Below, piece by piece: positions 24,901-42,900 of a stretch of 64,000 bases of DNA. This DNA comes from Amoebidium appalachense. Lineage: Eukaryota; Protista; Ichthyosporea. The position numbers and the translations under genes were made by a program. The notes under the pieces were generated by a model that searched no databases, was not told the origin of the DNA, and saw nothing but the letters and a program-made list of their open reading frames with translations. How positions within the stretch are numbered: position 1 is the first letter of the stretch; each line of letters begins with the position of its first letter. The DNA lies in assembly GCA_963693365.1 (NCBI GenBank), contig CAVNZM010000016.1:4893149-4957148 (forward strand), given 5' to 3'.

Positions 24901-27900
24901 CCCCTCCTCCCCCCCCCCCCCCCCTCCCCTCCCACCGCGGCCCCTCTTCTCCTCTTTCCACCAAAGCTTATGCGCGCACGCACACACACACACACACCCG
25001 TAAAACAAATAAGCACACACACACACACACACACACACACACACACACACACACACACACACACACACACACACACACACACACACACACACACACACAC
25101 ACACACACACACACACACACACACACACACACACACCACTCACACACACCCCACTCACACACACCCCACTCACACACAAGGCCTTCAATGGTGGAGCCGT
25201 GCAAGCTGTGAATTCCAACGTCACGATTGTTAATTCCACGTTTCGTGCATGCTCTACGCCCGGCCAGGGAGGGGCAGTTCACAGCCCAAATAACATCGTT
25301 ATCAAGGATTCGTTTTTCTACGATAATAGCGCAGAGGTGAGTGACTAAATATAGTAATTTGAACACAAACAAAGTTTTGTATTCTGCTTTATGTTCTTTT
25401 CTCTCTCTTGTCTTCTCTTGTCTGCCTGTCACTCTCTCTCTCTCCTCTGTGATGTCTCCCCCCCCCCGCCCCCTCTCTCCATCCTTCCTCCCTCCTTCCC
25501 CTTCTCCTTTCCCCTCTCCCTGTTTCTCTCTCCATCCCCTCTCTACCCATCCCCCCCACCCACCCATCCCCCACCCCACCCGTCCCCATCTCCCTTCTTC
25601 TTCCAACCCCCTCTCCCTCTGTGTGTGTGTTTGTGTGTGTGTGTGTGTGTGTTACCGTATTCGGCACATCAGTAACTGGATTGTATAAATGTGTGCATCC
25701 CTAATTGTTAATGAGTTACTGCGAATCAAAGCCTAAATTGAAATTTGCACTGAAATCTCTGCTAATCTCTGCAGATCGGTGGAGCGGTGGTCTCAGCCGA
25801 AGGGTACATCAACATCACAAACTCGGTTTTCTTTAACAACACAGCTAAGGTATGGTGTCTCAGCACTTTTTTTTTTTTGTGTGTGTGTGTGTGTGTGTGT
25901 GTGTGTGTGTGTTTGTTTGTGTGTGTGTGTGTGTGTGTGTGTTTGTGTGGCTAGATATTAGGTTCTTGTTTTCTTACCTGTTTTGAAATTGTAACACCAT
26001 CATAGGTAAAAGACTTCACACCATACTCAGAAACCCTAATAATTTGTGTAATCCCCCTAACGATGATATAGTTCAACCCTTGTCAACTCGTTCTGTGTAA
26101 GAAATGCATCACATGATCACAATCCTCGCACCAACGGCATTGGTGGGTGTTCATACCCTTCCATCACCTAATTGGTCTCTCTTTGACCGGCACATTCTGA
26201 TTGGGTCTGTATCACACACAGTCAAAGGGCGGTGCCATTGCCTCGATCAAGGGTCTGGTACAGTGCACAAAGTGCAACGTGTCGGAGAATACAGTCACGG
26301 ACGGGGCCCAAGATGTATTATCCCCCCCCCCCCCCCCCCCCCCCCCCCCCCCTCCCCCCCCCCCTTCCCCCACCCACCCACCCACACACCACATATACAA
26401 GCACGCGCGCACACACGCACACGCACACGCACACGCACATGCGCGCGTGCGCGCGCGCGCGCGCGCGCGCGCGCGCGCACACACACACACACACACACAC
26501 ACACACACACACACACACACACACACACACACACACACACACACGGGCACCCCTATAAGCCTAATAGTGTATTTGCCTCCATGTTTCCCACCCTCTTATG
26601 AACCCCCCCCCCCCCCCCCAGCGCATACCCCCCTCCCCCCCAAAAAAGAAGAGAGAAAAGAAAAGAAAAGAAAAAATGGTTGTTGGCTTTTTTTAAGTTA
26701 CCATACATGGAGCGTCACCCACTCCCATGCAGTTCATGTGAACCATTACGCATGGGCTTAGATCAATAACAAAGATCGAACTCCAACTTCTGCTCCCAGA
26801 TTTTTGGGTTGACTTGTCCTTATGTTGGACGTCAATCCACATGCTAATTCTGGTGAATGGGGTTTTTTCCTCTTGCAGGGAGGTGTGGGAGGGGGTATCT
26901 ATGCGCAAACGTCTGCAAATTTGGTGACATCGCATCTGATTTGTAACAGGGCAGGTGTGGTAAGTGCACTGTAACACCCCCCCCCCCCCCCCCTCCCGCG
27001 TACTTCGTACTGTGTTCCGCATTCAAAACCCCCCCTGTCTTCTTTCAGAGGTGTCCTTTCAGGACAGACCACTGTGTGGAGACATCTTTACTTCCATGCA
27101 ACCGGGCATGGTTGCTCTGTGTCGTGCATCTGTAAGCACATACGCGTTTGTCGCTGCACTGCATTAGTTTGCACATACATCTTCACCGTTTTGCTCACCT
27201 TGCTTGCATAAGCAACCCTGCTCGTCTTTGATCAAGACGGGTTGACCCACCCAAGTTCAGTTGATGCTGCTGTCTGAGTTGGAGCGTCGTATATACGCGG
27301 GCTAAGGGGTCGAAACTCAGACGCAATTGATGACTTGGGCCCTCCCTGAGGATGGGCTCTGCTTATGACGCATACTGTGCGCATGGCTGATGCTGCATAC
27401 TTGAATGTTTGCCTTTGCATGTGTCCTGCACCATGCTTCTCATCGTGTATGCGTACTTCGTACTGTGTTCCGCATTCAAAACCCCCCCCCCCTCCCCCCC
27501 CCCCCTCCTCCTCCACACACACACACACACACACACACACACACACACACACACACACACACACACACACACACACACACACACACACACACACACACAC
27601 ACACACACACACACACACACACACACACACACACACACACACACACACACACACACACACACACACACACACACACACACAGGCACACACACACACACAC
27701 ACACACAGGCACACACACACAGAGCTCCCCATGTCCGGTTGCTCCCCCCCCCATTATTTTCGAAAAGCTGAACATAAAAGCGAACCAACATCTTAAAGTT
27801 TGGGATAAGGAAAGAGAGGGTAGAGAGGGGTCTCAAGGACGGGGGGGGGGGGGGGGGGGGGGGGGGGGGAAGGAGGAAATAGAGAAACGGGAGGAATTAG

Positions 27901-39900: not shown

Positions 39901-42900
39901 TCTCCCTGGGCATGCGCCTATGGTTCTGCATGGAGATAGCAAAGGGTCTGGAGTATTTAGCGTCCATACCCTTAGTACACAGAGATATTGCCGCTAGAAA
40001 CGTACTGCTGCGATCCCCCGTTAGAAACGAAGGTGAGGAGATGGGTGTTTTTGTTTTCGTTTCTTTCTTTTTTTCTCTTTTTTTTCCCCCCCCTGTATGC
40101 CTTGTTTTGTTTATGTTTTTTGTTTATGTTTTTCTTAGTTTGTTTTCTTTACCCTTCTTTGATTCTTTCTTTTCGTTCTTTCACTTCTTTTCCTCCTTTG
40201 TTTTCTTTCTTTTTTCTTACGACACACATGATGGTTTATTTATAACGTGCTAGGAAGGTGCTGAGGTTATCAGCTGGTGCAAAGAATTTCTTTTTCTTTT
40301 AGGTTTTAGTTTTTAGTTCTAGTTTAAATTTTAGTTGCAGCAAACCAGCCGATTCATTTGGCCTCCACCCCCTCAAATTTTCCAACCGTGTTATCATATA
40401 TCTTTATTCTCTCAAGAAAAATTGCCTCTTTTTTTTTTTTTGTGATAAAAAGACCACGCCCCCTGATCGATGCTGACATTCTACCAATCAGAATTCCCCG
40501 TGGTGAAGATTTCAGACATGGGTCTGGCTCGGCTGACCATCCAAGAAGAAAACTACGTCAAGCAGAGTGAAGGCGGTATGTGCCCTCCCCCCCTCCCCCT
40601 CCCCCTACCCCTTTCGTTCCCCCCTCCCTTGCATACATGCACACACAGGCTCACAGACCACACACCTCCCCGTCGTTCCCCCCTTCTCCCCCCCCCCCCC
40701 CCCCCCCCAAGGCCCTTAATGTCCCCTATCCCCTCCCCTTCGAAACATCTACACGTGCGCTTGTGTGTGTGTGTGCGCGCACACACACACACACACACAC
40801 ACACACACACACACACACACACACACACACACACACACGCACGCACACACACACACACACACACACACACACACACACACACACACACACACATGCCTCC
40901 CCATCCCCAGCATGCGCGCTGCACAACACACACTCACCTGCCCCCCTTCACCCTTCTTCCCCTCCTCCCGCTCCCATTCCCCTCCCCCCCCCCCCCCCCC
41001 CCCCCCCCCCCCCCCACACACACACACACACACACACACACACAAACACACACGTGCAGGCATTCTCCCTGTGCGCTGGATGGCACCAGAGACCCTCCAA
41101 GCCAACGGCATCTACACGGAGGCCAGTGATGTCTGGTCCTATGCTGTGTGTGTGTGGGAGATTTTCGCTAACGGCGCCGTTCCATACGAGTTCTGTGATG
41201 TAAGTAGCGACCCCCCCCCCCCCCCCCCCCCCCTCCAAAAAAAAAAAAATGTATCCTCCTCCATATTTCCAACCGCCTGAATGCATGCAATCCTCCCCCT
41301 CCCCCCCCCCCCCCCCCCCCCCCCCCCCATCCCGCGCCTCTTCCTCGGGTTTTTGGACAATAACTGCCCCCCCCCCCCCCCTCCCCCCACCCCACCCCCA
41401 CCCACCCCCCAACTTCCCCCCTCCCTCTTTCCTCCTCCGCACGACGACACTATCACTCCACCCCTTCACACACACACACATGCCGTCCATGCTACCACTA
41501 ACGACTTTCTTCCCCTATCCCCCTTCCCTCCCTCTCTCTCTCCGCACACACACATCCCTCCCCCCCCCCCCCCCCCCCCCCCCCCCCCCCCCCCCCCCCC
41601 CCCCCCCCAAAAAAAAAAAACAAAAAAACAAAAAAAAAAAACAGAACACCAAGTTCTTAGCCATTCAAAGACACGCCGTTATGCGACTCAATAAACCAGC
41701 CATCTGCCCAGATGTAAGTCCCCCCTCCCCTTCCCCTCCCCTATTCTTTCCCTCCCCTCCCCATCTTCTCCCCTTGGGTCCTCCCTGAGGATGGGCTCTG
41801 CTTATGACGCATACTGTGCACATGGCTGATGTTGCATACTTGAATGTTTGCCTTTGCATGTGTCCTGCACCATGCTTCTCGTCGTGTATGCGTACTTTGT
41901 ACCGTGTTCCGCATTCAAAACCCCCCCCCCCCTCCTCCTCCCCCTTCCACAAATTCTGAAAGGGGTTTCTTGTTTTTGGGGAGCAAGAGGTTTTATCAGC
42001 CGCCTAGCACCTTTACTTTCACTTAGGGGTACCCTTACGTAAGGCGTAATTTACGTAGGAACGACGCATAGGCTTACCATGTTACCCCTACACCCCCTCT
42101 CATCCATCTACCCACCAAATAATGTTTCCGGCAAGTTTAACTGTCCTCGTCTCTTTATTAACCAGCTTTTTTTTTTTTTGACCGTTCATCCCCTCACACA
42201 CACATACATGCGTATGCGCGCGCGCGTGCGCGCGCGCGCACACACACACACACACACACTCGCGCGCAGGACGTGTACGATATCATGGGTATGTGTTGGG
42301 AAATGCAACCAGACAAGCGTCCACGTTTCCACGAACTTGCCGCCAAAACATCAGCAATTTTCGGAAGAGAATGTCCCCAGGTGGCTGGCCAGGTAATGCC
42401 CCCCCCCCCCCCCTCTTCCCCCCCCCCCCCTTCCCCCTTCCCCCCCCTTCCCCCCCCCCCCCGTTCCCTCCCCGCACGTCCCTCTATCCCCCTTCCCCCT
42501 CTTCCTCCCTCCCCCTTTTCTCTCCTCTGACCCCTCCCTCCTTGTTCATTTACCCTCCCCTCCTGTAGATACGGCCCTTCTCTCCTGCAAACCCAACCAA
42601 TGTCCACAACACACACTAACGTACATGCATCAACATACACACACACACACACACACACACACACACACACACACACACACACACACACACACACACACAC
42701 ACACACACACACACACACACACACACACACACACACACACACACACACACACACACACACACACACACACACACACACACACACACACACACACACACAC
42801 ACACACACACACACACACACACACACACACACACATGCCCCTCTCTCCCCCCCTCCTCACACACACACACACACAGACACACAGACACACATGCCCCTCT

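What the first reader, a model, noticed from the sequence alone, without database searches (positions are those of the whole stretch)
26998..41920. Poly-C-targeting, hairpin-rich ~450-bp mobile repeat with fixed 3' end and more-than-unit-length copies
Seen: four insertions in three RTK introns (26998-27481, 35084-35221, 35254-35935, 41773-41920). All are sense-oriented, lie in the C-rich tract 40-60 nt after a donor (or stacked on a previous copy's C tail), and end CGCATTCAAA(A) plus poly-C, with variable 5' starts. The two long copies are a 3' fragment fused head-to-tail to a full unit. The unit has many stems (GTCCT-ttc-AGGAC, TTGCTT-gcat-AAGCAA, CGTCTT..AAGACG, CCCAAGT..GTCTGAGTT...AACTCAGAC..ACTTGGG, GGGCCC..GGGCTC) and no credible ORF. 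Two copies 6.7 kb apart share diagnostic variants, so activity looks recent. Known: 5' truncation with a fixed 3' end indicates target-primed reverse transcription, and partial-tandem copies occur in Penelope-like elements and in retrozymes copied from circular RNA. Inference: a non-autonomous, possibly circular-RNA-templated retroelement that targets C/G homopolymers. I could not assemble a canonical ribozyme core by eye.
Basis: partly seen in the sequence, partly recalled or inferred. Interest (0 to 1): 0.8.

Follow-up and report, generated by a model that had tools for sequence, protein, structure and literature searches.

The report
Split-core hammerhead in poly-C-targeting repeat
An abundant 450-base non-coding repeat in a single-celled relative of animals sits in runs of C and carries all conserved bases of a hammerhead self-cutting RNA in a rewired order that can also be read in published Naiad retrotransposons; it likely moves with a Penelope-type reverse transcriptase, and cutting is predicted, not shown.

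Summary
Observation confirmed: four insertions (94-100% alike) of a ~451-bp non-coding unit, with a fixed 3' end in poly-C, variable 5' ends and head-to-tail partial tandems. They lie in introns of an expressed ichthyosporean receptor tyrosine kinase. Public runs show a very high-copy family (14,819 contigs in one DNA run), head-to-tail joints in 4 of 4 runs, including a run shown to be RNA, and a sister family. This anatomy matches non-autonomous Naiad/Chlamys-type Penelope-like elements, and (C)n targeting is already known for Chlamys.

CUGAGGA, GAAA, GUU and stems I-III lie in scrambled S-G-C order. The core is split between A9 and G10.1 by a four-way junction, with a K-turn-like bend. No shuffle of 20,000 reached this match. 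The sister family keeps the core and covaries three helices. Six Naiad consensus ends in Craig 2021's supplement show the same wiring by eye. Ten literature searches found no description of it.

Not shown: cleavage, RNA circles, the partner enzyme, or an empty target site. The GUU triplet is a weak point. Verdict: new variant of a known kind, interest 0.75.

The parts
26998..27481 (+). Insertion A: 32-nt 3' fragment (pseudo-LTR, 26998-27029) fused head-to-tail to a full ~451-nt unit (27030-27481); poly-C on both sides
35084..35221 (+). Insertion B: 5'-truncated copy starting at the internal CCCTCCC, with C microhomology to the upstream tract; identical to D over the shared 3' part
35254..35935 (+). 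Insertion C: 232-nt 3' fragment (35254-35485) + full unit (35486-35935), 1.5 laps sharing private variants; sits in the C-tract behind B; holds two predicted cut sites (after 35287 and 35735)
41773..41920 (+). Insertion D: 5'-truncated copy in an intron that is spliced out of the kinase mRNA
27207..27367 (+). Predicted ribozyme domain of unit A1, closed by the junction helix 27207-27218 / 27354-27367; same domain in C1 at about 35663-35822
27221..27241 (+). Hairpin of the four-way junction that interrupts the core between A9 (27352) and G10.1 (27244)
27244..27259 (+). Stem II 5' strand (27244-27248, pairs 27307-27311, G10.1-C11.1) followed by the stem I/II bridging helix (27250-27259, pairs 27331-27339)
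   Evidence: covariation in sister-family loose ends
27260..27266 (+). K-turn-like motif: 3-nt loop 27260-27262, tandem G.A/A.G (27263-27264 with 27330-27329), then U.U
   Evidence: definition of a K-turn recalled
27272..27284 (+). Block S: stem III strand, G-U-U triplet (27278-27280; predicted cut after 27280), stem I strand 27281-27284
27307..27322 (+). Block G: stem II 3' strand, GAAA (27312-27315), stem III strand
27342..27352 (+). Block C (first half): stem I strand 27342-27345 and CUGAGGA core 27346-27352
49895..50030 (+). Old, decayed copy resembling the sister family, broken by a poly-C run and flanked by C-tracts
14253..44385 (+). Host gene: ichthyosporean receptor tyrosine kinase (beta-helix and TNFR repeats, membrane span, kinase); extent approximate, 5' part weakly supported
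   Evidence: spliced RNA contigs

Best explanation
It is a high-copy, non-coding repeat with a fixed 3' end in poly-C and head-to-tail partial tandems, likely mobilised in trans by a Naiad/Chlamys-type Penelope-like reverse transcriptase, and its RNA is predicted to fold into a split-core, non-circularly permuted hammerhead that would cut after position 27280. Proposed cycle: (1) Shown: RNA contigs cross the head-to-tail junction. (2) Inferred: two ribozymes one unit apart release a ~451-nt monomer that can be ligated into a circle. (3) Inferred: the partner's endonuclease nicks the G strand of a poly-C/G tract, the G-rich 3' end anneals to the short C-run the unit carries just past its 3' end, and reverse transcription starts at that fixed point. 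(4) Shown as outcome, inferred as mechanism: copying stops at variable points, often at internal C-rich microhomology, or runs past one lap, giving 1.07- and 1.5-unit copies whose two laps share private variants. The ribozyme has stems I-III and all core bases, but in the order stem-II strand, S, G, C. A four-way junction sits between A9 and G10.1, and a K-turn-like bend would fold the stem I/II bridging helix back onto the core. My odds: Penelope-type non-autonomous element about 0.8, working ribozyme about 0.6, circular template about 0.45.
For: Element class: fixed 3' end, 5' truncation, partial tandems. 14,819 and 9,839 contigs laid in two DNA runs, summed depth rising towards the 3' part, poly-C loose ends at the 3' end (34 and 43 contigs) and 3'-to-5' joints in 4 of 4 runs. 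Poly-C before 5' ends at the internal C-run in 6-32 contigs per row. Craig 2021 gives the same traits for Chlamys/Naiad and non-autonomous MRC1. RNA: X13 and X14 (one sample) hold spliced kinase contigs, so they are RNA; in X13 one contig crosses the junction at depth 60 against 6.8 for the kinase contig, and four contigs form a closed loop round the unit. Ribozyme: one S-G-C arrangement of CUGAnGA, GAAA, NUH with stem I 4 bp and stem III 8 bp. With stem II 5 bp and an 8-bp bridge, 0 of 20,000 shuffles match at the observed level, 44 at middle and 311 at loose criteria, and 0 of 269 other window tiles match loosely. All model pairs hold in A1 and C1 except one terminal A-G in A1. Nested folding of the domain gives this scaffold and leaves the pseudoknot strands free in the centroid. 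The sister family keeps CUGAGGA and GGUCGAAACUC and changes pairs in stem II (C-G to U-A or U.G), the bridge (A-U to U.G) and distal stem III (read from 30-letter loose ends). Type-SGC hammerheads with a bridging helix are experimentally active (Eckert 2023). Six Naiad consensus ends (three sequence groups) show the identical split wiring and five an intact C-S-G order, of 16 Naiad places read by eye.
Against: No cleavage or circle data; contigs give neither strand nor ends. The triplet is GUU, whereas the 11 Naiad motifs read have GUA or GUC; U17 is the poorest choice (recalled) and can pair with A14. Stem I is only 4 bp, and the minimum-energy folds put the core strand in a small hairpin. 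Descriptor thresholds and the folded window were chosen after seeing the motif. The sister family's block S was not seen, and its covariation comes from consensus loose ends with agreement 0.59-1.0. No pile-up of 5' ends or depth step at the predicted cut among the rows shown (530 loose-end rows hidden). No partner RT found: no whole genome is held, and 18 window frames had no RT or GIY-YIG hit. None of 14 Chlamys places read showed the motif clearly, although (C)n targeting is the Chlamys trait. No empty site was resolved. No inverted 5' copy, common in Penelope-like insertions, is in the window.
Confidence: 0.62

Rival explanations
1. Same non-autonomous Penelope-like element, but the hammerhead is inactive or nearly so in this family (GUU) and no circle forms. 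Partial tandems arise from read-through transcripts of tandem donor copies or from template jumps, as proposed for pseudo-LTRs.
For: GUU triplet. RNA contig 19 of X13 crosses the predicted cut with 0 differences. Craig 2021 reports tandems in elements thought to lack hammerheads. The junction linker varies between copies.
Against: Core and stems are intact in both full window copies and kept with covariation in the sister family. A re-ligated circle would also cross the cut site.
Confidence: 0.22
2. An ordinary type-SGC hammerhead: stem II is formed by the strand two bases after CUGAGGA (27355-27360 with 27306-27311), and the upstream GACCC pairing is an inhibitory alternative or a switch, not part of the active core.
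For: That pairing exists (6 bp) and respects Eckert's limit of 1-2 inserted bases.
Against: Three of its six pairs are G.U, and its duplex is -5.1 against -7.1 kcal/mol. One sister variant breaks it while compensating the upstream pairing. It conflicts with the junction helix seen in the fold. In the Naiad ends the strand after the core does not pair with stem II.
Confidence: 0.08
3. A Pol III SINE-like element whose conserved GGTCGAAAC is a B box and whose 27271-27282 stretch is an A box, mobilised by a LINE; the hammerhead likeness is incidental.
For: A and B boxes with one mismatch each, 25 nt apart.
Against: 283 of 3,000 shuffles match equally well. The boxes lie mid-unit, with T4 runs inside the unit. 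ARAGORN and Rfam find no tRNA, 5S or 7SL head. The boxes do not explain CUGAGGA, the pseudoknots or partial tandems. The boxes could still serve as a promoter alongside the ribozyme.
Confidence: 0.04
4. A DNA element: solo LTR/TRIM, or a rolling-circle (Helitron/Replitron-like) element giving one fixed end and partial tandems.
For: One fixed end and more-than-unit copies also occur in rolling-circle elements (recalled). Unit A1 can be read TG...CA.
Against: The junction reads AG, not TG, in C1 and in the RNA contig. No CTRR 3' end and no terminal inverted repeat hit. RNA-specific motifs are present and shared with RT-encoding Naiads.
Confidence: 0.04

Closest known systems
Non-autonomous Chlamys/Naiad (N-terminal EN+) Penelope-like elements, e.g. 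MRC1 (Craig et al. 2021, PMC8557442; passages, sections 9-10 and supplement searches read)
   Same: 5' truncation, pseudo-LTR partial tandems, head-to-tail copies, microsatellite targeting including (C)n, high copy number, no canonical hammerhead. The split-core motif is readable at six Naiad consensus ends in that paper's supplement.
   Different: The host is an ichthyosporean, a lineage absent from the passages read ('holozoa' and 'ichthyospore' 0 hits). It combines the Chlamys-like (C)n target with a Naiad-like ribozyme. The paper reports no such ribozyme, only 'HHR_core' and 'HHR_half_core' labels. No partner ORF identified here.
Type-SGC and type-CSG non-circularly permuted hammerheads (Eckert et al. 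2023, PMC10085705; parts 1-5 of 8 read)
   Same: S-G-C order of cleavage site, GAAA and CUGAnGA; stems I-III as pseudoknots; a helix bridging stems I and II.
   Different: Block C is interrupted between A9 and G10.1 by a four-way junction, which that paper assumes cannot happen. There is a K-turn-like element ('k-turn' and 'kink' 0 hits). It lies in a eukaryotic genomic repeat, whereas the SGC forms came from metatranscriptomes. GUU triplet; activity untested.
Non-LTR retrozymes (Cervera and de la Pena 2020, PMC7229834, passages; Li et al. 2026 bioRxiv 10.64898/2026.07.22.740005, part 1 of 5 and passages)
   Same: Non-coding head-to-tail unit at the upper end of 150-450 bp, one hammerhead per unit, proposed Penelope mobilisation and circular RNA.
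   Different: Those carry type I hammerheads, are described from animals, and occur as dimers to long arrays. Here the wiring is permuted, the window copies are 0.3-1.5 units, the target is poly-C, and circles are not shown.

Membership tests
Non-autonomous Naiad/Chlamys Penelope-like element | Fixed 3' end with frequent 5' truncation | tested here: met
   4 of 4 window copies; loose-end and depth tables
Non-autonomous Naiad/Chlamys Penelope-like element | Partial tandems forming pseudo-LTRs / head-to-tail copies | tested here: met
   2 of 2 full-unit copies; 3'-to-5' joint in 4 of 4 runs
Non-autonomous Naiad/Chlamys Penelope-like element | Insertion bias for microsatellites such as (C)n | tested here: met
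   C-rich on both sides in 4 of 4; pre-existence of the tract not proven because no empty site was resolved
Non-autonomous Naiad/Chlamys Penelope-like element | 3'-end similarity to an autonomous family encoding N-terminal GIY-YIG plus Penelope RT | not testable with these tools
   No genome held; no RT among 18 window frames; only 30 letters of loose ends are shown
Non-autonomous Naiad/Chlamys Penelope-like element | Inverted 5' copy or 30-40 bp tail (frequent, not obligatory) | tested here: inconclusive
   No inverted copy in the window and no strand-change joint among rows shown; too few copies to define a tail
Hammerhead ribozyme, type SGC | CUGAnGA, GAAA and NUH with stems I and III adjacent | tested here: met
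   H is U
Hammerhead ribozyme, type SGC | 5'-to-3' order S, G, C with a helix bridging stems I and II | tested here: met
   27279, 27312, 27346; bridge 27250-27259 / 27331-27339
Hammerhead ribozyme, type SGC | Block C uninterrupted (stem II strand within 2 nt of A9) | tested here: inconclusive
   A weak adjacent pairing exists, but the stronger, covarying stem II strand lies 100 nt upstream; so it is not filed as type SGC proper
Hammerhead ribozyme, type SGC | Site-specific self-cleavage | not testable with these tools
   Needs an in vitro assay
Non-LTR retrozyme | Type I hammerhead in each unit | tested here: not met
   No type I, II or III match on either strand of A or C; Rfam none
Non-LTR retrozyme | Expressed as circular RNA | not testable with these tools
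   RNA contigs close a loop, but contigs cannot tell a circle from a tandem transcript
Solo LTR / TRIM | TG...CA ends, both ends fixed | tested here: not met
   The junction reads AG in C1 and in the RNA contig; 5' ends vary
Helitron | 3' CTRR end, A/T target | tested here: not met
   target is poly-C; features recalled
tRNA/5S/7SL-derived SINE | Pol III RNA-derived head at the 5' end | tested here: not met
   ARAGORN 0, Rfam 0; mid-unit A/B-like boxes are at chance level, 283 of 3,000

The most novel reading that the evidence does not exclude
A seventh hammerhead wiring, with the catalytic core split between A9 and G10.1 by a four-way junction and bent by a K-turn, is active. It is the missing ribozyme of N-terminal-endonuclease Penelope-like elements, and it drives a circular-RNA retrozyme in a unicellular relative of animals. 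Ribozyme and element class would then predate animals, and repeated insertion may feed this genome's abundant poly-C tracts.
Probability: 0.4. Interest if true: 0.9.

Novelty: new variant of a known kind. Interest (0 to 1): 0.75.

Why it matters
Eckert 2023 enumerated six hammerhead permutations on the assumption that the three blocks cannot be interrupted, and found the new ones outside eukaryotic genomes. Craig 2021 concluded that Naiad and most Chlamys elements lack hammerheads. An active split-core form in a high-copy eukaryotic repeat, shared with Naiad ends, would revise both statements. It would explain partial-tandem pseudo-LTRs by more-than-one-lap copying of a circular RNA, and extend such elements to Ichthyosporea. 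It is testable at once with a 170-nt transcript, and the precise cut site is predicted.

Tried and rejected
Whole genome: none held, so copies could not be collected or counted; 'thousands' is an inference from contig counts and depths, which the tool says are not copy numbers.

Rfam: 0 hits at gathering score over the window, and 3 low-complexity lncRNA hits at E up to 10 on B and C. ARAGORN 0. Canonical hammerhead types I-III: 0. HDV, twister and pistol were covered only by Rfam and by eye.

Collection scans: metagenome 3 loci and viral 1 locus, all 20-25-nt chance matches; a gapped ribozyme pattern in viral contigs gave 2 loci, neither with a downstream core.

Runs: the look-up of sequencing runs listed no holder on record as RNA (no evidence either way); two guessed runs were then shown to be RNA. 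Empty-site test at D: inconclusive. X4 did not cover the flanks, X8 covered only 41940-42205, and four joints skipping D rest on 18-23 C-rich letters and were not trusted.

Earlier findings: none by sequence, by genome or for ichthyosporeans.

Literature: ten searches found no description of a split-core or K-turn hammerhead, or of such elements in Ichthyosporea; subscription journals and bioRxiv supplements are not covered.

Naiad and Chlamys consensus sequences were read by eye only (31 of 33 motif places shown), not computed on.

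
Full report
Observation. A is a 32-nt 3' fragment plus a full unit, C a 232-nt 3' fragment plus a full unit, and B and D are 3' fragments of 138 and 148 nt. 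Over 132 shared 3' bases, B and D are identical, C0 and C1 are identical, and the other 8 of 10 pairs differ at 3-5 places. A0 and A1 share a T where B, C and D have C, and C0 and C1 share a private T. The two laps of each long copy therefore look like one template read more than once, not two insertions. All four end in CGCATTCAAA(A) plus 11 or more C, with 17-26 C in the 30 nt on the left; 1.5% of window positions are followed by C11. B and C start at internal C-rich microhomology, D has one base of it and A0 none. Poly-C is very common here (138 C-runs, 61 G-runs), which accounts for the orientation and the closeness to donors.

Host. A kinase exon matches PK_Tyr_Ser-Thr. Its nearest named relatives are Sphaeroforma arctica (83%) and a CFRG-labelled protein (77%; Creolimax by my recall of the prefix), 4 hits among 6 candidates. 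These map as one receptor kinase over about 14-44 kb, so the host is inferred to be an ichthyosporean.

Family. Twenty of 24 listed runs, from 7 studies, hold the unit. Laying the unit gave 14,819 contigs in X1 (a possible source of this DNA) and 9,839 in X4, with summed depth two- to several-fold higher in the 3' part, poly-C loose ends behind 27480, and a joint from 27480 back to 27030 in 4 of 4 runs. Variant 27239A is 16% of depth in X4 and 0.009% in X1, which suggests strain-specific recent spread. The second lay shows poly-C in front of 5' ends at the internal C-run. X13 and X14 (one sample) hold contigs that join the exons either side of D and the exon before, so they are RNA and D is intronic. 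In X13 the only contig over the unit's first 64 bases is the junction contig (depth 60, against 6.8 for the kinase contig), and four contigs close a loop round the unit. A circle and a transcribed tandem both give this picture. Loose ends reveal a sister family sharing 27198-27242, GGTCGAAACTC, 27329-27376 and the last ~22 bases; a decayed sister-like copy lies at about 49895-50030. The empty-site test was inconclusive.

Class. Craig 2021 (PMC8557442; passages, sections 9-10, supplement searches) describes Naiad and Chlamys Penelope-like elements with 5' truncation, pseudo-LTR partial tandems and microsatellite targets. (C)n and (CA)n are common in Chlamys, and non-autonomous members such as MRC1 form head-to-tail copies. 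Solo LTR, Helitron and tRNA-SINE features fail. No partner RT was found: no genome is held and 18 window frames gave no RT or GIY-YIG hit.

Ribozyme. Rfam and canonical type I-III descriptors find nothing. Allowing any strand order gives one hit in A: stem III plus GUU plus stem I at 27272-27284, GAAA at 27312, CUGAGGA at 27346. This is the S-G-C order of Eckert 2023 (PMC10085705; parts 1-5 of 8), whose examples cleave and have a helix bridging stems I and II. Here the best stem II strand (27244-27248, with G10.1-C11.1) lies upstream. It runs into a strand that pairs with the bases just 5' of stem I, which is that bridging helix. A long-range helix and a hairpin bring A9 back to G10.1, making a four-way junction. 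Between stem III and the bridge lie a 3-nt loop and tandem G.A pairs, the K-turn pattern as I recall it. The four-block match was reached by 0 of 20,000 shuffles at the observed level, 44 at middle and 311 at loose criteria, and by 0 of 269 other window tiles; thresholds were set after the fact. The domain folds into this scaffold at z -2.7 (window chosen afterwards), whereas the whole unit is unremarkable. The sister family keeps the core and GAAA and shows compensatory or wobble changes in stem II, the bridge, the K-turn arms and distal stem III (read by eye from 30-letter consensus ends). Its block S is unseen; one reading of the two ends gives GUA followed by GGGG and a 3-nt linker, but contig arithmetic does not fix the gap.

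External check. I searched Craig's supplement for five GAAA-block words and read 31 of 33 places. Of 16 places in the Naiad file, 6 (three sequence groups) show the same split wiring: hairpin, stem II strand, bridge, GUA site, GAAA, core, and a helix back to the hairpin. Five show an intact C-S-G order, 1 is unclear and 4 show no motif. None of 14 Chlamys places was clear, and 1 place lay elsewhere in the file. This was by eye. The paper itself notes only 'HHR_core' and 'HHR_half_core' cases. Earlier AI notes of this scan report scrambled hammerheads, K-turns and a split core in animal repeats. I had the S-G-C and split-core reading before that call (notes). The notes prompted the K-turn and wider Naiad checks and are not counted as evidence.

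Against. The triplet is GUU (the poorest, from recall; the 11 Naiad motifs have GUA or GUC). Stem I is 4 bp. A weaker adjacent stem II would make it a plain SGC. Pol III A/B-like boxes overlap blocks S and G but at chance level (283 of 3,000). No 5'-end pile-up at the predicted cut appears among the rows shown. Nothing shows cleavage or circles.

Novelty. Non-LTR retrozymes carry type I hammerheads in animals (Cervera 2020, passages; Li 2026, part 1 of 5 and passages). Eckert assumes uninterrupted blocks and does not mention K-turns. Ten searches found no report of this wiring or of such elements in Ichthyosporea; coverage excludes most subscription journals and bioRxiv supplements.

Verdict. 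The element works like a Naiad/Chlamys-dependent retrozyme. Membership is unproven without the partner. It is a new variant of a known kind, with a sharply testable ribozyme prediction. Interest 0.75.

Noticed in passing
window 39206-39291 and 39325-39410; 37667-37777 and 37868-37998: Two partial tandem duplications of kinase exons (90% and 74% alike); P0001 uses the 39352 and 37517 copies. Possible alternative exons or decayed duplicates.
   Followed up: partly
window 50791-50900 and 51045-51156: A pair 72% alike over 112 nt, each preceded by poly-G, so ending in poly-C on the minus strand; possibly another C-tract-targeting repeat family.
   Followed up: no
window 49714-49855: A 140-nt segment between two C-tracts that ends in the element's terminal CATTCAAA but otherwise does not align; perhaps the 3' end of a further family.
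   Followed up: partly
window 59459-59494: Weak 35-nt likeness to the post-core block, shortly after a C-tract; perhaps a very old copy.
   Followed up: partly
runs X11 and X13, loose ends at unit positions 27131, 27185, 27198: Contigs run on for 200 to 255 or more letters beyond the shared blocks; one carries bridge-like and stem-III-like words, suggesting a third relative or the autonomous partner.
   Followed up: no
window 61310 to about 62650: Array of near-identical 41-bp units.
   Followed up: no
window about 47680-47815: About six to seven tandem copies of a ~20-bp unit.
   Followed up: no
window 5260-5294 / 6230-6264 and 18201-18238 / 18415-18452: Two inverted-repeat pairs (94% and 87%), MITE-like spacing.
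   Followed up: no
whole window: About 12% of the window lies in C- or G-rich tracts, with very long (CA)n and (CT)n runs in introns.
   Followed up: partly
PMC8557442 supplement, Naiad consensus file: Five Naiad consensus places read as intact type-CSG hammerheads, a type so far known from two metagenomic sequences.
   Followed up: partly
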